Positions 1-4,104 of a DNA stretch of 4,166 nt are shown here, piece after piece. The notes below the pieces were generated by a model that was given only the letters and a program-made list of their open reading frames with translations, made no database searches and was not told the origin of the DNA. The stretch lies in IMG/VR virus record IMGVR_UViG_2645727555_000033. One strand, given 5' to 3'. The translations under genes and the position numbers were made by a program. The stretch is from a virus (taxonomy: Duplodnaviria; Heunggongvirae; Uroviricota; Caudoviricetes). The stretch's first letter is position 1. Each line of letters starts with the position of its first letter.

Positions 1-1230
1 ATGAGCAGAGCACTTAACAAACTGAGCGATACACAGCTGAGGAAAATCAACGGCACACCCGCCCAAAAAACAGCCTTTCTTAATGACGGTGGAAACCTGA
101 GCGTCAGGCATTCAACCAGTGGCCTTTTAACCTGGTATTTCACTTACAGGGCCGGAACGGGAAGGGGGGCACCACCGGAACGCATTAAGCTGGGAAATTA
201 TCCTGATCTGAGCCTGAAATCAGCCAGGGAAAAAGCCGCCCAGTGTCGCGCATGGCTGGCAGAGGGGAAAAATCCACGTCATGAGATGAATTACACCGTA
301 CAGGAAGCGTTAAAGCCCGTAACGGTTGGTGATGCGCTCACCTACTGGCTTGAGTCGTACGCAAAGGAAAACCGTGTGGATTATGACCCACTGAAAAAGC
401 GGCTAAATAATCACGTAATACAGCACATTGGCCCTATGCCGCTGGATAAATGCGAGCTACGGCACTGGCTGGCCTGTTTTGATCGGGTGGCAAAGCAAGC
501 CCCTGTTTCCGCCGGGTTCCTGCTACAGACATGCAAGCAGGCGCTTAAGTTCTGCCGGAAGCGGCGCTATGCAATCAGCAACGTTCTTGATGATATGAGT
601 GTGGCGGACGTTGGGAAAAAACCGGATATAAGCGAGCGTGTCTTAAGCAACAAAGAACTTGGCGAATTATTGCAGGCACTGGACAAAAAAATATTCTCCC
701 CCTACTACATCGCGCTAATCCGCCTCCTGATTGTGTTCGGATGCCGGACGGTCGAACTTAGGTTATCGGAGATCGGCGAGTGGGATTTTACCGAAATGCT
801 CTGGACTGTTCCGAAGGAGCACAGCAAAACGAAGGTAGCCATATTCCGGCCCATACCGGAAGCAATACTGCCGTTCGTCACGCAGCTGGTGGAGCAGAAC
901 AGGCACACGGGCTTATTGCTGGGGGAAGTGAAACAGGAAACAAGCGTGTCGCAGTACGGCAGATTAGCGCACAGGAGGCTAAATCACCCTCACTGGTCAC
1001 TACATGACATCCGGCGCACCTTTACAACGATGCTGAACGATTTAGGCGTGGATCCTCACGTCGTGGAGCAGCTTACAGGCCACCAGATGCCAGGAATGCA
1101 GCGAGTTTATAATCATTCCCGTTATCTGGATGCTAAACGCAATGCGCTGGATATGTGGATGGAGCGGTTAGGGATACTGGCGGGAACACATGAAAACGTA
1201 ACCGCACTACCAGTAGCCAGAAGAAAATAA
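1..1230 (+). CDS. int: Site-specific tyrosine recombinase / integrase, P4-like family (409 aa)
   Basis: ORF 1-1230 starts with ATG at position 1 and ends with TAA. The N-terminus (LNDGGNLSVRHSTSGLLTWYFTYR...IKLGNYPDLSLKSAREKA) resembles the arm-DNA-binding domain of P4-type integrases. The C-terminus carries the catalytic signature of tyrosine recombinases: box I Arg (FGCRTVELR), box II H-x-x-R (HDIRRTF) and the terminal nucleophile tyrosine region (VYNHSRYLDAKRNALDMW). The internal small ORFs on both strands are overlapped by this gene and treated as spurious. Confidence 0.9.
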   Translation: MSRALNKLSDTQLRKINGTPAQKTAFLNDGGNLSVRHSTSGLLTWYFTYRAGTGRGAPPERIKLGNYPDLSLKSAREKAAQCRAWLAEGKNPRHEMNYTVQEALKPVTVGDALTYWLESYAKENRVDYDPLKKRLNNHVIQHIGPMPLDKCELRHWLACFDRVAKQAPVSAGFLLQTCKQALKFCRKRRYAISNVLDDMSVADVGKKPDISERVLSNKELGELLQALDKKIFSPYYIALIRLLIVFGCRTVELRLSEIGEWDFTEMLWTVPKEHSKTKVAIFRPIPEAILPFVTQLVEQNRHTGLLLGEVKQETSVSQYGRLAHRRLNHPHWSLHDIRRTFTTMLNDLGVDPHVVEQLTGHQMPGMQRVYNHSRYLDAKRNALDMWMERLGILAGTHENVTALPVARRK

Positions 1231-1247
1231 TTTTTTTCGTGTTTTTT

Positions 1248-1271
1248 CAGTATGCGCATACTGGATATGCG
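1248..1271. repeat. Perfect 16-bp palindrome CAGTATGCGCATACTG plus a third TATGCG half-site
   Basis: Read directly: cagtatgcgcatactg at 1248-1263, preceded by T-runs (1231-1237 and 1242-1247) and followed by a further TATGCG at 1266-1271. No U-run follows the palindrome on either strand, so it looks like a protein-binding site rather than an intrinsic terminator. Confidence 0.5.
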
Positions 1272-1285
1272 AACAGATACAACGT

Positions 1286-1325
1286 GCAACAATGAGCAAC
1301 AATGTGGAACAACTACGAACAAGAG
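1286..1325. repeat. Four tandem degenerate 10-bp repeats (GCAACAATGA / GCAACAATGT / GGAACAACTA / CGAACAAGAG)
   Basis: Read directly: head-to-tail decamers at 1286-1295, 1296-1305, 1306-1315 and 1316-1325 with a conserved core (G/C)(C/G)AACAA. The 10-bp period matches one helical turn, which suggests iteron-like or regulator-binding sites. Confidence 0.5.
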
Positions 1326-1514
1326 GCGAAAAAGCGTACGGATTTATAAGTGGCTGATTTCTAATGTGTTACTGGTTTTTTATACACTAGCGAATCACTC
1401 TTTAAAGAGCGAGAAAAAAGGCATGGAACAATATTTTATGCCTTTGTATTAACATGAATTTAAAAGATTTTATTCTTACTGTTTCATTTTCTGTAAATCA
1501 TACATCCTCAGTAT

Positions 1515-1543
1515 TTGCCATTCATCACTCTAGCGGGAACAAT
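1515..1543 (+). promoter_or_regulatory. Candidate sigma70 promoter for alpA
   Basis: TTGCCA (1515-1520), a 17-bp spacer, then AACAAT (1538-1543). The predicted start is about 45 nt upstream of the alpA GTG. This is a pattern match only; other promoters in the AT-rich 1440-1590 region are possible. Confidence 0.25.
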
Positions 1544-1594
1544 ACGACACAATAAGACACCTGATGACTCTTTAAGAAACGAAAGGGGGCAATA

Positions 1595-1783
1595 GTGTTA
1601 AGCACTGATCGGTTTATACGTGAAAAAGAATGCAAAAAACTAACCGGCCTTAGCCGTACGTGTCGCTACCGCCTGGAAAAGGCCGGACAATTCCCATCAC
1701 GTCGTAAACTTGGCGGTCGTTCCGTTGGCTGGTCTTTATCCGAGGTTCTGGCCTGGAAGGATAGCTGCAAGGCAGTTCATTAA
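1595..1783 (+). CDS. alpA: AlpA/Vis-family phage transcriptional regulator (wHTH, excisionase-like), 62 aa
   Basis: GTG start at 1595 preceded by a strong Shine-Dalgarno AAGGGGG (1583-1589). The protein MLSTDRFIREKECKKLTGLSRTCRYRLEKAGQFPSRRKLGGRSVGWSLSEVLAWKD has the AlpA pattern (TGLSRSTIYRL..G.FP....LG.RSVGW...EV..W). Its position directly downstream of a P4-type integrase is typical. Confidence 0.8.
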   Translation: MLSTDRFIREKECKKLTGLSRTCRYRLEKAGQFPSRRKLGGRSVGWSLSEVLAWKDSCKAVH

Positions 1784-1789
1784 TCACGC

Positions 1790-1808
1790 TGGCGGCACAC
1801 AGCCGCCA
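1790..1808. repeat. Perfect palindrome TGGCGGC-acaca-GCCGCCA just after the alpA stop
   Basis: Read directly: 7-bp arms with a 5-nt spacer. It is not followed by a U-run on either strand, so it is more likely a binding site or stabilising hairpin than a terminator. Confidence 0.45.
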
Positions 1809-1931
1809 CACATCAATCATCTGAACACAGAGCTATAACCATGAAGATTGAATATACGCCAGAACGTGGGCGGGGATTCGTTCGCCCTGGTGAAACTGAA
1901 AAACAACAAAATTGGGGTTTTTCAGGCATAA

Positions 1932-2000
1932 CAAAAAGCGCCCAGTTACCTGAGCGCCTTTGTGAACGATTAACCTGCTGCACAAAAAATAAATATGAGC
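1932..2000 (-). ncRNA. Candidate small RNA of about 65-70 nt (extended -10 promoter plus intrinsic terminator)
   Basis: On the minus strand there is a perfect extended -10 element TGATATAAT (plus coordinates 2015-2007) with no good -35 box. About 45 nt downstream of the predicted start sits a GC-rich hairpin GCGCTCAG-GUAA-CUGGGCGC (plus 1957-1938, 7 of 8 stem pairs, GNRA-type loop), followed immediately by UUUUU (plus 1937-1933). No ORF with a ribosome-binding site lies between promoter and terminator. Confidence 0.3.
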
Positions 2001-2053
2001 ATTGGAATTATATCAACTGTGTGAAGAAGCGCCACAATTGCCGGATTACAGGC

Positions 2054-2080
2054 AAAAAAATGCGACCTATGATGGTCGCA
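2054..2080 (-). terminator. Rho-independent terminator of the minus-strand cassette
   Basis: On the minus strand: stem TGCGACC, loop AUCAUA, stem GGUCGCA (plus 2080-2061), followed by UUUUUUU (plus 2060-2054). It lies about 75 nt downstream of the stop of the 61-aa ORF. Confidence 0.6.
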
Positions 2081-2156
2081 AAAATATGATATACATGTTG
2101 ATTACACTATGCATCGACAACGATGCCACATTTTTGGCTGGTTGGCAAATCTGTCA

Positions 2157-2342
2157 TCAGGGCGGACAACAACGCCACGATCTCATCTTTCTTGGGCAAT
2201 TTTTAAGAAAATCCTCAAGGGCAAATCTTTTTGGCCTTGCTTCCTGTTCATGGTCAGGCATTTCATCCATTTCTCTTAATTTTTTTTCTACCTGTCTTTC
2301 AAGTATGGATAATGCGATTTCCCGTAATTCTTCGTTGTTCAT
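2157..2342 (-). CDS. Hypothetical small protein (61 aa), highly charged with a Cys-rich C-terminus
   Basis: ATG at 2342 is preceded by a strong Shine-Dalgarno (ACAGGAGTAGACA-ATG) and an in-frame stop just upstream. Protein: MNNEELREIALSILERQVEKKLREMDEMPDHEQEARPKRFALEDFLKNCPRKMRSWRCCPP. A terminator follows downstream. I do not recognise a family. Confidence 0.5.
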   Translation of the reverse strand: MNNEELREIALSILERQVEKKLREMDEMPDHEQEARPKRFALEDFLKNCPRKMRSWRCCPP

Positions 2343-2363
2343 TGTCTACTCCTGTAAAGAAAT

Positions 2364-2390
2364 GCGCCGTAGTTCCTCACACCACGGCGC
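2364..2390 (-). promoter_or_regulatory. Intercistronic hairpin between the 34-aa and 61-aa ORFs (possible attenuator)
   Basis: GCGCCGT, a 13-nt loop, then ACGGCGC (2364-2370 and 2384-2390). On the minus strand it is followed by AUUUCUUUAC and then the Shine-Dalgarno of the 61-aa ORF. It sits about 10 nt after the stop of the upstream 34-aa ORF. Confidence 0.3.
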
Positions 2391-2399
2391 TGATAGTTT

Positions 2400-2504
2400 T
2401 TATCCTTTGGGTTCTATGCCGCGTTGCTGTAATTCTTTGCGGATTATTCGCTTTATCCAGGCAGCAAGAGAATCATCGCCGTCCTGTTGTTGTGCCTTTT
2501 CCAT
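2400..2504 (-). CDS. Hypothetical 34-aa ORF (leader-peptide-like or small protein)
   Basis: Translated by hand from the minus strand: ATG at 2504 to TAA at 2402-2400, giving MEKAQQQDGDDSLAAWIKRIIRKELQQRGIEPKG. It is below the size cutoff of the supplied ORF track. The Shine-Dalgarno is weak (GGGAAAAG). Its position immediately upstream of a hairpin and the 61-aa ORF is the main support. Confidence 0.3.
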   Translation of the reverse strand: MEKAQQQDGDDSLAAWIKRIIRKELQQRGIEPKG

Positions 2505-2572
2505 CTTTTCCCGTAAGTCAGGATCTAAACGGAACTGGAACGGAGGATTACCACGCCTTTCGTTTTTGTGTG

Positions 2573-2628
2573 TTGACACGTTAATTACACCTCATGTAAT
2601 GTATTTATGTGTAATGACACATTACACA
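2573..2628 (+). promoter_or_regulatory. Promoter/operator region: consensus -35 TTGACA with four TGTAAT/ATTACA half-sites
   Basis: TTGACA at 2573-2578; a possible -10 TAATGT at 2597-2602 (18-bp spacer). Half-sites: ATTACA 2584-2589, TGTAAT 2595-2600, TGTAAT 2610-2615, ATTACA 2621-2626. The last two lie inside a perfect 9-bp inverted repeat TGTGTAATG-aca-CATTACACA (2608-2628). The operators overlap the spacer, -10 and predicted start, a classic repressor-controlled layout between divergent transcription units. Confidence 0.45.
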
Positions 2629-2646
2629 CAATCAACACAAAAAGCA

Positions 2647-2679
2647 AAGCCCCGCACTGTAGGAGCAGTAACGGGGCTT
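2647..2679. other. Hairpin presenting a Shine-Dalgarno copy (UAGGAG) in its apical loop
   Basis: 8-bp stem AAGCCCCG/CGGGGCTT (2647-2654 and 2672-2679) plus an inner 4-bp stem ACTG/CAGT, with loop TAGGAG (2660-2665). The heptamer TAGGAGC (2660-2666) is repeated exactly as the real ribosome-binding site of the first operon gene (2698-2704). On the minus strand the hairpin is followed by a U-rich run (CUUUGCUUUUUGUG), so it could also act as a minus-strand terminator. Confidence 0.4.
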
Positions 2680-2708
2680 CTAACCAACAACGTAAACTAG
2701 GAGCCGTT

Positions 2709-2903
2709 ATGGTTGCCGTAAATCATATACCACACCTTGTACACACACAAACGGCCTTTGTGTGGCGTTTTCTGGCACTGAGTGCCGGAGAATCTCAAAT
2801 CATCCACGTAACCGCCTGGAGGGAACGCGAAGCGCGTAGCCGTTGCCCGTCCGGTTGTGTTGCTGTATTCGCCGCCCGTATTCGTCAGGGGGTAGGCTTA
2901 TGA
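2709..2903 (+). CDS. Hypothetical small protein (64 aa), first gene of the plus-strand operon
   Basis: ATG at 2709 with Shine-Dalgarno TAGGAG five nt upstream. Its TGA stop overlaps the next start (ATGA at 2900-2903). Codon usage looks enterobacterial. Protein: MVAVNHIPHLVHTQTAFVWRFLALSAGESQIIHVTAWREREARSRCPSGCVAVFAARIRQGVGL. The longer track ORF from 2607 has no ribosome-binding site and is rejected. Confidence 0.45.
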   Translation: MVAVNHIPHLVHTQTAFVWRFLALSAGESQIIHVTAWREREARSRCPSGCVAVFAARIRQGVGL

Positions 2904-3133
2904 GTCAGGAAATCACACTACAACAGGCAGCAGAACGCGCCCACCAAATCGAAGTTATTTGCGCACTGGCAGAGGATTACCCTGGCATGATGACCGACAG
3001 CGAATCAGGGGCAATCATCGGCTTACTTAAACGCCTTAGCGGTGAGGTCTGCGTATTCCTGAGCGATGAACAGGAAAGAAGAACGCTTATTTCTAACGAA
3101 AAAAAATGCGGAGGGGTACACCATGTGCAATAA
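2900..3133 (+). CDS. Hypothetical small protein (77 aa)
   Basis: ATG at 2900 with a G-rich Shine-Dalgarno (GGGGGTAGG), coupled to the upstream stop by ATGA overlap. Protein: MSQEITLQQAAERAHQIEVICALAEDYPGMMTDSESGAIIGLLKRLSGEVCVFLSDEQERRTLISNEKKCGGVHHVQ. Confidence 0.6.
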   Translation: MSQEITLQQAAERAHQIEVICALAEDYPGMMTDSESGAIIGLLKRLSGEVCVFLSDEQERRTLISNEKKCGGVHHVQ

Positions 3134-3350
3134 AACCACACCGGACGCAGCCGCCGCCGCACTCACTACGCTGATGCACGCGCTTATTGATATTGAATGC
3201 ACGGCAGAGCTTGCACAAAAGGAAGAACGGGAGGAATACACATTGTTCGCCCTGGAATGTATCCGATACACCGCCACGCGGTCGCTGAATGACGCTAAAA
3301 ATATTCTTGTTGCTGATTGTGAAAATGGGGAGGGGGGGGGTTATGCGTGA
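3123..3350 (+). CDS. Hypothetical small protein (75 aa); its 3' end carries a G9 tract
   Basis: ATG at 3123 preceded by GGAGGGG, overlapping the end of the previous gene by 11 nt. Protein: MCNKTTPDAAAAALTTLMHALIDIECTAELAQKEEREEYTLFALECIRYTATRSLNDAKNILVADCENGEGGGYA. The last codons run through GGGG-A-GGGGGGGGG (3327-3340). Confidence 0.5.
   Translation: MCNKTTPDAAAAALTTLMHALIDIECTAELAQKEEREEYTLFALECIRYTATRSLNDAKNILVADCENGEGGGYA
3332..3340 (+). repeat. G9 homopolymer tract at the junction of the third and fourth operon genes
   Basis: Read directly: nine consecutive G at 3332-3340, preceded by GGGGA. The tract encodes the C-terminal Gly residues of the upstream ORF and also serves as the ribosome-binding site of the downstream ORF, whose ATG is at 3343 in the +1 frame. 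Confidence 0.9.
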
Positions 3351-3564
3351 TGATCGTTTTAATTCCCTGAAACAAGAATTTTCCGGCGTTCCTGATGATG
3401 CGGCTGATGCGCTTTCGTCAATATCTGAAATTATGCGGGTGGCTTTTTTCTTTCTTTTCACTGATGAGCACAGAGGTACAGGGCTAAATATTCTTGATAT
3501 TGCCGCTAACTATGCTGATTTCGTGACAGAAGCTGTTTTAAGAAAAACAACGGACGGGGATTAA
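3343..3564 (+). CDS. Hypothetical small protein (73 aa)
   Basis: ATG at 3343 immediately after the G-rich tract, overlapping the upstream stop by 8 nt. Protein: MRDDRFNSLKQEFSGVPDDAADALSSISEIMRVAFFFLFTDEHRGTGLNILDIAANYADFVTEAVLRKTTDGD. It may instead be the C-terminal half of a single fused gene (see findings). Confidence 0.5.
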   Translation: MRDDRFNSLKQEFSGVPDDAADALSSISEIMRVAFFFLFTDEHRGTGLNILDIAANYADFVTEAVLRKTTDGD

Positions 3565-3565
3565 T

Positions 3566-3799
3566 ATGCGTGATATTTATCTTGAAACAATAGACCGCGC
3601 ATTTCTTGCACTTTCTCACAGTGAAAATATGTTGGAAATATTTCGCATATGGCTTGAAACACGTGGCGACAATGAACGCGACAAACAAAAATCAAGAATT
3701 GCCACGGCATTAATAACGATTCTTGAGCCTGTAATAATGGAACTGCAAGAAATAGATCTATTGCACGACAGATATAAAGAACAGCACACCGGAGAATAA
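3566..3799 (+). CDS. Hypothetical small protein (77 aa)
   Basis: ATG at 3566, two nt after the upstream TAA, with ribosome-binding site GGGGA. Protein: MRDIYLETIDRAFLALSHSENMLEIFRIWLETRGDNERDKQKSRIATALITILEPVIMELQEIDLLHDRYKEQHTGE. It shares the start context ATGCGTGAT (MRD) with the previous gene. Confidence 0.6.
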   Translation: MRDIYLETIDRAFLALSHSENMLEIFRIWLETRGDNERDKQKSRIATALITILEPVIMELQEIDLLHDRYKEQHTGE

Positions 3800-3804
3800 A
3801 AATA

Positions 3805-4104
3805 ATGAAACTTAAATATCCTGGCTTAACTGCCAGTGGCAAAACTCGCACTAAATTCATGCGCGGGGATATTTACCGCGATAAGTACGGCGGCACGGTA
3901 ATGATTAAGGGCGTGGAGGAACGGCGCGTAACTTACCGCCGTGAAGGCTACGAATATGATTGCGTGATGCCTGTTTATCAGTTCGAACGTGATTTTACGC
4001 TGGTGCAGGCAGCGCAACGAAGCAAGCCCACCAGCAGGGAGAAAGCACGCACCAATATTCAGAAGATGAAAAACATGATTAACGGATTCAGGGGCAAGAA
4101 ATGA
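3805..4104 (+). CDS. Hypothetical small basic protein (99 aa)
   Basis: ATG at 3805 with Shine-Dalgarno GGAGAA; its stop overlaps the next start (ATGA at 4101-4104). Protein: MKLKYPGLTASGKTRTKFMRGDIYRDKYGGTVMIKGVEERRVTYRREGYEYDCVMPVYQFERDFTLVQAAQRSKPTSREKARTNIQKMKNMINGFRGKK. It may belong to a prophage-associated family of unknown function, but I cannot confirm that without a search. Confidence 0.6.
   Translation: MKLKYPGLTASGKTRTKFMRGDIYRDKYGGTVMIKGVEERRVTYRREGYEYDCVMPVYQFERDFTLVQAAQRSKPTSREKARTNIQKMKNMINGFRGKK

What the first reader, a model, noticed from the sequence alone, without database searches (positions are those of the whole stretch)
3123..3564. G9 tract where loss of a single G fuses two adjacent small genes
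Nine consecutive G (3332-3340) sit exactly where the third operon ORF ends and the fourth begins. In the sequence as given, the upstream ORF terminates at 3350 and the downstream one starts at 3343 in the +1 frame. Deleting one G makes the upstream frame read GAG GGG GGG GTT ATG CGT and continue straight into the downstream gene, giving one protein of about 146 aa. Adding one G truncates the upstream ORF after a short extension. A run of this length is prone to slipped-strand mispairing. This is therefore one of three things: a phase-variable or frameshift-controlled switch, a recently split gene, or a homopolymer sequencing error hiding a single larger gene.
Basis: seen in the sequence. Interest (0 to 1): 0.65.

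Follow-up and report, generated by a model that had tools for sequence, protein, structure and literature searches.

The report
Slippery G-run joining two satellite genes
A run of G bases at the overlap of two tiny genes in an E. coli phage-satellite island changes length between strains, so the two proteins are made separately in some strains (as here) and fused in others; this is a real, heritable mutational hotspot and not a sequencing error, but nothing shows that it is a fast regulated switch.

Summary
G9 lies at 3332-3340, within GGGG-A-GGGGGGGGG. ORF3 (3123-3350) and ORF4 (3343-3564) overlap by 8 nt (ATGCGTGA), and removing one G gives a 146-aa fusion.

The window is an exact piece of an E. 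coli contig. The same G4AG9 allele is found in at least 10 independent assemblies, so it is not a read error.

In 151 homologous loci the junction reads GAAAAT-Gn-TTATG:
- G8 (split) in 65.
- G7 (fused) in 34.
- G9 (split, 12-aa out-of-frame tail) in 32.
- G10 or G11 in 7.
- Interrupted runs in 13.

Protein databases hold hundreds of contigs with G7, G10 and G13 fusions. O157:H7 carries the fused form and O55:H7 the split form of the same island.

Tract length is already randomised between elements that differ by 0.5% or less. Yet it is uniform within clades such as O157:H7 and across Nissle re-assemblies. It therefore changes on an evolutionary timescale, not a culture timescale.

Distant relatives have the two halves as separate, independently shuffled modules with the same stop/start overlap and no G-run. 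Split is therefore the ancestral state and the fusions are derived.

Best reading: an over-long G-rich ribosome-binding and glycine-codon run that slips during DNA replication, in a capsid-forming PICI satellite. All three frame states are tolerated. Adaptive phase variation remains possible but untested.

The parts
3327..3340 (+). G-rich tract GGGG-A-GGGGGGGGG (G4AG9, 14 nt). It encodes the Gly/Glu-Gly-Gly-Gly tail of ORF3 and supplies the Shine-Dalgarno sequence (GGAGG at 3329-3333) and spacer for ORF4. Its length is polymorphic among homologues.
   Evidence: Census of 151 loci: G7 34, G8 65, G9 32, G10 5, G11 2, interrupted 13.
3123..3350 (+). ORF3, 75 aa, predicted helical hairpin (phrog_5146, or the N half of phrog_2512). 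Function unknown.
   Evidence: The exact protein is on about 25 contigs.
3343..3564 (+). ORF4, 73 aa, predicted helical hairpin (phrog_24341, or the C half of phrog_2512). It keeps its own ATG in every allele, including the fused ones.
3343..3350 (+). 8-nt stop/start overlap ATGCGTGA, the translational-coupling junction. The same ATGCNTRA overlap is found in relatives that lack the G-run.
   Evidence: L153 has ...GGGAGAAACTGTGTGATGCATAA. L172 has ...CAGGGGGGTAAACATGCGTGA.
2900..3133 (+). ORF2, 77 aa (phrog_1478). It is a facultative upstream module of the same operon. An A8 run at 3099-3106 behaves in a similar way but varies less.
3566..3799 (+). ORF5, 77 aa (phrog_2196), the next gene of the operon.
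1..1783 (+). Island context: tyrosine integrase (1-1230) and AlpA regulator (1595-1783) of a roxA-adjacent capsid-forming PICI-type satellite.
   Evidence: Pfam; neighbours: DUF4222, AAA_25 helicase, SSB, PerC, Phage_capsid.

Best explanation
The G-run is the over-extended, G-rich ribosome-binding region of ORF4. It lies inside the last (glycine) codons of ORF3, in a translationally coupled, overlapping gene pair of the early operon of an E. coli capsid-forming PICI satellite.

Because it is a homopolymer of 7-13 G, replication slippage changes its length by single bases. That moves the locus among three heritable states:
- 3n+2 (G8, G11, and this window's 14-nt G4AG9): ORF3 stops 5 nt after ORF4's ATG, giving two proteins by coupled translation. 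This is the ancestral arrangement.
- 3n (G9, G12): ORF3 gains a 12-aa out-of-frame tail that overlaps ORF4.
- 3n+1 (G7, G10, G13): one ORF3-ORF4 fusion of about 145-154 aa.

Shown: the polymorphism, its recurrence between near-identical elements, the intactness of both halves in all states, and the modular, separate ancestry of the two halves.

Inferred:
- The mechanism is DNA slippage rather than RNA or ribosome slippage.
- The rate is roughly 10^2.5 to 10^3 times the per-site substitution rate. That is an evolutionary hotspot, not a culture-scale switch.
- All three states are tolerated because the two products are autonomous helical-hairpin modules joined by a flexible Gly linker.
- The run is kept at 7 or more G because the 5' Gs serve as ORF4's Shine-Dalgarno sequence.
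For: Tract census: 151 loci have G7 to G11 plus interrupted forms. The Illumina metagenome subset shows the same spread (G8 27, G7 10, G9 12).

Fused proteins: junctions are ENGGVM, ENGGGVM and ENGGGGVM. Single clusters stand for 152, 212, 258 and 129 contigs.

Rate of change:
- the tract differs in 14% of pairs with identical flanks and in 73% of pairs that differ by 0.5% or less. That is already the level seen between unrelated pairs.
- 7 of 16 clusters at 0.3% divergence or less are mixed.
- the same 69-aa ORF3 body occurs with G4AG9, G4AG7, G11 and G10.
- O55:H7 (G8, two genes) and O157:H7 (G7, one 154-aa gene) differ by only 9 substitutions in 7.1 kb.

Stability within clades: all O157:H7 rows have the same length, and more than 20 Nissle and ATCC 25922 assemblies do too.

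Both halves stay functional: ORF4 is intact (73 or 77 aa) in essentially every state.

Separate ancestry:
- distant relatives are separate 72-77-aa proteins that start at ORF4's Met.
- ORF3-like occurs without ORF4, and ORF4 occurs behind another gene with a G6 Shine-Dalgarno sequence and the same ATGCGTGA overlap.

Structure: AF2 gives two helical hairpins with a low-confidence linker at residues 70-95.

Against RNA-level slippage, (PMC5574713): G/C runs are not prone to transcriptional slippage in E. coli.

Lower bound: no G5 or G6 allele was found among 151 loci, although the search pattern allowed them.

Control: the A8 tract is far less variable, 36 A8 against 3 A7.
Against: - No read-level data, so within-culture heterogeneity and the true switching rate are unknown.
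- Some complete-genome differences may be long-read homopolymer errors. Two assemblies of strain 97-3250 differ only at this tract and at an A8/A7 run.
- The search pattern fixed the flanks, so conservation of the tract itself cannot be judged without bias. The whole junction block of about 75 nt is conserved.
- The claim that all states are tolerated rests on allele frequencies. G7 and G9 are nearly symmetric around G8, which could also reflect balancing or fluctuating selection.
- Protein function is unknown: no Pfam, NCBIfam, PADLOC or fold match.
- The AF2 model is of low confidence (pLDDT 64).
Confidence: 0.6

Rival explanations
1. True contingency locus. The tract is maintained by selection as a stochastic switch that diversifies the satellite population between separate and fused forms of two early proteins, for example to change helper-phage interaction. 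Slippage might be especially frequent during the island's own burst of replication.
For: - All three frame classes are at high frequency, with no dominant stabilised allele. Only 13 of 151 tracts are interrupted.
- No contraction below G7 was seen.
- Switching recurs between near-identical elements.
[quoted passage not shown] 2021, Cell Rep 35:109214, listed in the reference list of PMC10877375).
Against: - Length is uniform within O157:H7 and across independent re-assemblies of Nissle and ATCC 25922.
- The inferred rate is only about 10^2.5 to 10^3 times the per-site substitution rate, comparable to other 7-8-nt homopolymers in the same island (T8/T7, A8/A7).
- Neither state switches a gene off. 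ORF4 keeps its own start everywhere.
- No phenotype is known.
Confidence: 0.2
2. Programmed recoding. From the split allele, a fraction of ribosomes (+1 shift on G GGG GGU) or of RNA polymerases (slippage on G9) produces the ORF3-ORF4 fusion, so both products are made from one DNA sequence.
For: - ORF4 is in the +1 frame.
- A G-run is a possible P-site re-pairing site, and it is itself Shine-Dalgarno-like, as in the prfB +1 site (my own knowledge).
- Fused versions are evidently functional enough to persist.
Against: - The tract length is not conserved; it occupies all three frames. That is the opposite of a fixed recoding site.
- ORF4 has its own ATG and Shine-Dalgarno sequence in all alleles.
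- There is no slow or stop codon at the shift site. The next codon is GGT.
- No stable downstream RNA structure: z = +0.55.
- Transcriptome data show no slippage at G/C runs in E. coli (PMC5574713).
Confidence: 0.07
3. Recently split (decaying) gene. A single ancestral gene of about 146 aa was broken by a frameshift in this lineage.
For: - PHROGs has a 154-position family (phrog_2512) that covers both halves.
- More than 100 fused clusters exist.
Against: - All fused forms use the same G-run junction and retain ORF4's Met.
- The 50%-identity representatives of each half are mostly separate 72-77-aa proteins.
- The halves recombine independently with other partners.
- Both ORFs are intact, with no decay, in split alleles.
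- G-less relatives have the same overlap architecture.
Confidence: 0.06
4. Homopolymer sequencing or assembly error in this record, hiding a single larger gene.
For: - Homopolymers are error-prone.
- Two assemblies of strain 97-3250 differ only at this tract and at an A-run.
- Some assemblies break at the tract.
Against: - The identical G4AG9 is found in 10 of 10 independent contigs from NCBI, ENA and Logan sources, including a complete genome.
- The exact ORF3 protein is on about 25 contigs.
Confidence: 0.03

Closest known systems
Simple-sequence (homopolymeric-tract) contingency loci, i.e. slipped-strand phase variation (Neisseria, Haemophilus, Campylobacter, Bordetella; e.g. PMC5084427, PMC1891110)
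   Same: A poly-G run in coding sequence. Length changes of one base shift the reading frame. Strain-to-strain length polymorphism covers all three frames.
   Different: - The host is E. coli, which has proficient mismatch repair and is not known for this mechanism.
- Change does not switch a gene on or off; it toggles two intact genes between separate, tail-extended and fused states.
- The apparent rate is evolutionary: clades are uniform.
- No phenotype is known.
Hypermutable polyG tracts in Campylobacter phages (Sorensen et al. 2021, Cell Rep 35:109214; reference seen)
   Same: The poly-G tract is carried by a mobile viral element rather than by a host surface gene.
   Different: Those tracts sit in receptor-binding protein genes, switch at high frequency within lysates, and have a demonstrated host-range phenotype. 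Here the genes are early-operon proteins of unknown function in a satellite, and no within-population variation has been shown.
Translationally coupled overlapping genes with the Shine-Dalgarno sequence inside the upstream gene (general bacterial and phage operon architecture)
   Same: An 8-nt ATGCGTGA stop/start overlap, with a G-rich Shine-Dalgarno sequence in the last codons of the upstream gene. The same architecture is seen in relatives without the run.
   Different: The Shine-Dalgarno and spacer region is a pure homopolymer of 7-13 G. This makes the frame relation between the two genes unstable.
Programmed frameshift or transcriptional-slippage sites (prfB, dnaX, IS3/IS1 A-runs, phage G/GT tail chaperone)
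   Same: A slippery run lies at the boundary of two ORFs in different frames, and a fusion product is possible.
   Different: - Recoding sites have a fixed, conserved slippery sequence, and the downstream ORF usually lacks its own start.
- Here the run length varies, ORF4 has its own start, and there is no stimulator.
- The run is G, not A or T.
Capsid-forming PICIs of E. coli (EcCIEDL933 type; Fillol-Salom 2018, PMC6092414; bioRxiv 10.1101/2025.02.11.637232)
   Same: The genetic context matches: int, alpA, small early genes, DUF4222, helicase/primase, SSB, PerC and an HK97-type capsid gene, next to roxA.
   Different: None of the papers I read mention the tract or the fusion/split polymorphism.

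Membership tests
Homopolymeric-tract contingency locus (slipped-strand phase variation) | Homopolymer of 7 nt or more inside or just upstream of a coding sequence | tested here: met
   G9 (G4AG9) lies inside the last codons of ORF3 and 2 nt upstream of ORF4's ATG.
Homopolymeric-tract contingency locus (slipped-strand phase variation) | Tract length polymorphic between strains, including between near-identical backgrounds | tested here: met
   G7 to G13 plus interrupted forms. Seven of 16 clusters at 0.3% divergence or less are mixed. O55:H7 has G8 and O157:H7 has G7.
Homopolymeric-tract contingency locus (slipped-strand phase variation) | High-frequency (about 10^-5 per generation or more), reversible switching within a clonal population | not testable with these tools
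   No reads are available. Indirect evidence points to a slower rate: uniform length in O157:H7 genomes and in more than 20 Nissle and ATCC 25922 assemblies. One same-strain discrepancy (97-3250) is confounded with sequencing error.
Homopolymeric-tract contingency locus (slipped-strand phase variation) | Length change alters expression and produces a selectable phenotype | tested here: inconclusive
   The frame consequences follow directly from the sequence: separate, tail-extended or fused. No gene is switched off and no phenotype is known.
Programmed ribosomal frameshift or transcriptional slippage site | Slippery sequence conserved in sequence and length among homologues | tested here: not met
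   Length varies from G7 to G13 and occupies all three frames.
Programmed ribosomal frameshift or transcriptional slippage site | Downstream ORF depends on the shift (no initiation signals of its own), and/or a stimulatory element is present | tested here: not met
   ORF4 keeps ATG plus a G-rich Shine-Dalgarno sequence in all alleles. No stable RNA structure, z = +0.55. G-runs are not slippage-prone for E. coli RNA polymerase (PMC5574713).
Capsid-forming PICI (phage satellite) | Integrase plus alpA plus a replication module (primase/helicase) in a 10-15-kb island | tested here: met
   Pfam finds integrase and AlpA in the window. AAA_25/RepA helicase, SSB and PerC lie in the same contigs. IMG/VR contigs are 7-14 kb.
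Capsid-forming PICI (phage satellite) | Own HK97-type capsid and packaging genes but no tail genes; helper-dependent transfer | tested here: inconclusive
   A PF05065 Phage_capsid gene lies directly downstream in L162 and L163. The rest of the island was not examined, and helper dependence is not testable here.
Split (pseudogenised) gene | Homologues outside the lineage are a single ORF, and the split copies show decay | tested here: not met
   Distant relatives are separate 72-77-aa proteins and independent modules. Both ORFs are intact in split alleles.

The most novel reading that the evidence does not exclude
The poly-G run is a genuine, selected contingency locus of a phage satellite in E. 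coli. Slippage may be boosted during the island's own primase/helicase-driven replication. It would stochastically convert two early proteins between free subunits and a covalent fusion, and so diversify how the cf-PICI interacts with helper phages, for example in induction, interference or host range. This would be a fusion/fission switch rather than the classical on/off phase variation.
Probability: 0.12. Interest if true: 0.75.

Novelty: new member of a known kind. Interest (0 to 1): 0.4.

Why it matters
About 17% of complete E. coli genomes (905 of 5426) carry this junction. These include O157:H7, other STEC, Nissle 1917, CFT073 and ATCC 25922.

The tract explains why annotation of these islands flips between two 'hypothetical proteins' and one larger protein, and why PHROGs holds both split and fused families. 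It may also explain why some assemblies break at this point.

The tract is a natural experiment in gene fusion and fission. The same two small modules exist free, tail-extended and fused, at comparable frequencies, in otherwise near-identical satellites.

If the states differ in function, this would be a rare case of slipped-strand variation in E. coli, and the first in a PICI-type satellite. If they do not differ, it is a clean example of a tolerated hotspot created by an over-long G-rich ribosome-binding site. It is also a caution for homopolymer-sensitive sequencing.

Tried and rejected
Searches and tests that gave nothing:
- Pfam, NCBIfam and PADLOC gave nothing for ORF2-ORF5 or for the fused protein.
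- Foldseek of the AF2 model against the PDB returned only generic helical bundles (ferritins) at E > 0.7. This is meaningless at pLDDT 64.
- Folding RNA from 3300-3420 found no structure better than shuffles, so there is no frameshift stimulator.
- All-against-all BLASTP of ORF2-ORF5 found no significant paralogy. The best hit was ORF3 against ORF4 at E = 0.18 over 11 aa.
- Searches for polyG or phase variation in E. coli prophages or PICIs found no description of this tract, nor did three satellite papers I read.

Technical failures:
- The search for related loci with the mixed alignment failed because it had no conserved stretch.
- With fused proteins only, the search for related loci found one Shigella flexneri locus in genome contigs. 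The family therefore looks confined to E. coli and Shigella, but the search patterns could only catch fused forms. I could not read that locus in Python.
- The first MAFFT run timed out.

Ideas considered and dropped:
- G-quadruplex formation. The tract is a single 14-nt run, which could form only weak two-tetrad structures, and this cannot be tested here.
- A function on the minus strand. The 122-aa antisense ORF at 3093-3461 has no support.
- Using the uniformity of G4AG9 across L162-L171 as evidence of stability. Those loci were selected by the exact protein, so the sample is biased.
Full report
**1. The observation**

The window reads ...GAA AAT GGG GAG GGG GGG GGT TAT GCG TGA... The nine G lie at 3332-3340 and are preceded by GGGG-A, so the G-rich stretch is 14 nt (G4AG9).
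- ORF3 (3123-3350, 75 aa) ends ...ENGEGGGYA*.
- ORF4 (3343-3564, 73 aa) starts at an ATG 5 nt before ORF3's stop. The two genes overlap by ATGCGTGA, and ORF4 is in the +1 frame.
- Deleting one G gives a continuous 146-aa ORF.
- Adding one G replaces the YA tail with LCVMIVLIP*.

A G9 run is not expected by chance. One was found against 0.03 expected, and 4 of 200 shuffles had any.

**2. Context**

The window carries these features:
- A tyrosine integrase (1-1230).
- An AlpA regulator (1595-1783).
- An Arc/YlcI-like gene on the minus strand (2400-2579).
- An Icd-like gene (2709-2903).
- A chain of small genes: ORF2 at 2900-3133, ORF3, ORF4, ORF5 at 3566-3799, and a DUF4222 gene at 3805-4104.

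The window is an exact substring of E. coli contig DF970526.1. In longer contigs the operon continues with an AAA_25/RepA helicase, SSB, PerC and then an HK97-type capsid gene, and the island sits next to roxA. This is the layout of the capsid-forming PICI satellites of E. coli (PMC6092414; bioRxiv 10.1101/2025.02.11.637232). The junction sequence is present in 905 of 5426 complete E. coli genomes.

**3. Not a sequencing error here**

The exact ORF3 protein, whose tail can only be encoded by G4AG9, is on about 25 contigs. All ten contigs fetched carry GGGGAGGGGGGGGG. They come from NCBI assemblies including the complete genome CP182026.1, an ENA metagenome and a Logan assembly.

**4. The tract is length-polymorphic, in all three frames**

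I searched IMG/VR and the metagenome collection with a pattern that fixes only GAAAATGGGG and ATGCGTGATGATCG. I added eight complete genomes, which gave 151 loci. The counts were:

| Allele | Loci |
|---|---|
| G8 | 65 |
| G7 | 34 |
| G9 | 32 |
| G10 | 5 |
| G11 | 2 |
| G8 followed by a single T | 1 |
| Interrupted runs (G5TG2, G4TG3, G4TTG2, G4AG7, G8TG2, G10AG) | 12 |

The SPAdes (Illumina) metagenome subset shows the same spread: G8 27, G7 10, G9 12.

The frame consequences are exactly as predicted:
- G8 and G11 give ...GGGYA* plus a separate ORF4.
- G9 and G12 give ...GGGLCVMIVLIP* plus ORF4.
- G7 and G10 give a fusion of 142-170 aa.

A protein search with the fused translation returned more than 100 fused clusters of 144-152 aa. 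Their junctions are ENGGVM (G7), ENGGGVM (G10), ENGGGGVM (G13) or ENGGGM. Single clusters stand for 152, 212, 258 and 129 contigs. PHROGs holds all three kinds of family: phrog_5146 (ORF3 alone), phrog_24341 (ORF4 alone) and phrog_2512 (154 positions, both halves). A spread sample of complete genomes gives a similar mix: about 17 G7, 11 G8, 10 G9, 1 G10 and 1 of 12 nt among 40 full-length rows.

**5. How fast it changes**

Evidence for frequent change:
- Among pairs of loci with identical flanks of 450 nt on each side, 14% differ in tract length. Among pairs that differ by 0.5% or less, 73% differ, which is already the value seen for unrelated pairs.
- Seven of 16 clusters at 0.3% divergence or less contain mixed lengths.
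- The same 69-residue ORF3 body occurs with G4AG9 (25 contigs), G11 (30), G4AG7 (5) and G10 fusions.
- The roxA island of O55:H7 CB9615 has G8 (genes of 79 and 77 aa). That of O157:H7 strain 2159 has G7 (one 154-aa gene). The two differ otherwise by 9 substitutions and one T8/T7 indel in 7.1 kb.

Evidence for stability:
- Every O157:H7 row in the spread sample has the G7 length.
- More than 20 assemblies of Nissle 1917 and ATCC 25922 derivatives have the same match length.

Taken together, the tract changes roughly 10^2.5 to 10^3 times faster than a single nucleotide site. Using the E. coli base-substitution rate of about 2x10^-10 per site per generation (recalled from memory), that is about 10^-7 per generation. 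This is far below the 10^-2 to 10^-5 of classical phase variation. It is similar to other 7-8-nt homopolymers in the same island (T8/T7, A8/A7).

One caution: two assemblies of strain 97-3250 differ over 6.1 kb only at this tract (G10 against G9) and at an A8/A7 run. That looks like long-read homopolymer error, so part of the variation in complete genomes may be noise. The A8 run at 3099-3106, used as an internal control, is much less variable: 36 A8 against 3 A7.

**6. Which state is ancestral**

In the library clustered at 50% identity the family has only 40 representatives. The more distant ones are separate proteins:
- N-half only, 72-76 aa (P0184, P0188, P0199).
- C-half only, 75-77 aa (P0186, P0190, P0197, P0205).

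The C-half proteins align from query residue 73, which is exactly ORF4's Met. Two N-half relatives end ...VGHA* and ...KLCDA*, with no glycine run.

The modules also occur apart:
- In L153 an ORF3-like gene is followed directly by an ORF5-like gene, with no ORF4. The junction is GGGAGAAACTGTGTGATGCATAA, which has the same 8-nt ATGCNTRA overlap and an ordinary GGGAG Shine-Dalgarno sequence.
- In JE86-ST05 (L172) ORF4 follows a different 121-aa gene. The junction is CAGGGGGGTAAACATGCGTGA, with a G6 Shine-Dalgarno sequence, a 5-nt spacer and the same overlap.
- About 12% of complete-genome hits align only from ORF4's ATG onwards.

ORF3 and ORF4 are therefore independent modules. The overlapping, coupled, split arrangement is ancestral. 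Every fusion goes through the G-run and keeps ORF4's Met. Both halves are intact in all states, so nothing is decaying.

The window's 14-nt tract belongs to the 3n+2 class, which is the ancestral arrangement. Its A creates a canonical GGAGG 9 nt upstream of the ATG.

**7. Mechanism**

Transcriptional slippage is unlikely. In E. coli transcriptomes all slippage insertions in homopolymers were in A or T runs, and G/C runs were 'not prone to slippage' (PMC5574713).

A programmed +1 ribosomal shift is also unlikely:
- The tract length is not conserved.
- ORF4 has its own start.
- The A-site codon after the run (GGT) is common.
- No RNA structure follows (z = +0.55).

DNA replication slippage fits the heritable, clade-specific alleles.

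The run probably exists because ORF4's Shine-Dalgarno sequence lies in ORF3's last codons. With only TT between the run and the ATG, at least about 7 G are needed to place 4-5 G at a workable distance. Consistent with that, no G5 or G6 allele was found although the pattern allowed them. This step is inference.

The AF2 model of a fused homologue has low confidence (pLDDT 64, pTM 0.44). It shows two helical hairpins (residues 9-67 and 92-142) joined by a low-confidence segment at 70-95 that contains the Gly linker. This is compatible with fusion being structurally harmless. The near-symmetry of G7 (34) and G9 (32) around G8 (65) fits stepwise drift with weak frame selection.

Interrupted (stabilised) tracts were found only in non-fused classes: 0 of 13 against about 3.4 expected, P about 0.02, and the cases are not independent. 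This is a faint hint that the split state is preferred when the tract becomes fixed.

**8. Function**

The function of ORF3 and ORF4 is unknown. There are no hits in Pfam, NCBIfam or PADLOC, and no meaningful fold match. There is no significant paralogy among ORF2-ORF5.

**9. Comparison and novelty**

Mechanistically this is a homopolymeric slipped-strand tract. It works like a contingency locus, but it fails or cannot be tested on the defining feature of high-frequency switching within a clone. It also toggles fusion and fission rather than on and off.

It is not a programmed recoding site, because two defining features were tested and not met. It is not a split pseudogene.

The nearest viral precedent is the set of hypermutable polyG tracts in Campylobacter phage receptor-binding genes (Sorensen 2021, reference seen). 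I found no description of this tract in the PICI and satellite literature that I could search.

I rate it a new member of a known kind, with moderate interest (0.4). It is real, widespread and neat. Its most likely reading is a tolerated mutational hotspot. The more exciting reading, a satellite-encoded fusion/fission switch, has roughly 0.12 probability and can be tested directly by amplicon sequencing and isogenic alleles.

Noticed in passing
window 3099-3106 (A8 near the end of ORF2, 2900-3133): A second homopolymer behaves in a similar way. A7 alleles fuse ORF2 to ORF3 (3 of 39 loci that have ORF2). Triple fusions of ORF2, ORF3 and ORF4, 217-221 aa long, exist; P0089 is on 52 contigs. Each junction from ORF2 to ORF5 steps the frame by +1.
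   Followed up: partly
window 2900-3133; loci L010-L028 and others: ORF2 is a facultative module. In 93 of 132 related loci the Icd-like gene is followed directly by ORF3.
   Followed up: partly
L153 2501-2951; L172 329-1134: ORF3-like and ORF4 are shuffled independently. ORF3-like occurs without ORF4, and ORF4 occurs behind an unrelated 121-aa gene. An 8-nt stop/start overlap ATGCNTRA recurs at these module junctions.
   Followed up: yes
window about 3310-3420: A block of about 75 nt around the junction is at least 90% conserved, while the bodies of ORF3 (two subtypes) and the tail of ORF4 (two subtypes...LRKTTDGD or ...ARYRRKFPEDVSHA) are mosaic. This suggests the junction acts as a recombination boundary between modules.
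   Followed up: partly
proteins P0125, P0130 (cluster of window 3123-3347): 'Partial' ORF3 proteins ending at ...ADCE, on 19 and 7 contigs, show that many draft assemblies break exactly at the tract. Possible causes are repeats (up to 4 related islands per genome) or read problems or heterogeneity at the G-run.
   Followed up: no
L173 and L174 (strain 97-3250, two assemblies): Over 6.1 kb the two assemblies of one strain differ only at this tract (G10 against G9, annotated as one gene against two) and at an A8/A7 run. This is either long-read homopolymer error or real change between stocks.
   Followed up: partly
L175 (O55:H7 CB9615) and L176 (O157:H7 2159); window 1231-1237: This is the same roxA-adjacent island. 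There are 9 substitutions, a T8/T7 change just after the integrase stop (T7 in the window) and G8/G7 at the tract. The fused 154-aa gene appears to be fixed in O157:H7.
   Followed up: partly
L162-L164 3320-3781, compared with the window at about 2903: Close relatives that carry the same G4AG9 allele have an extra 153-aa ORF between the Icd-like gene and ORF2. The window and L165 lack it.
   Followed up: no
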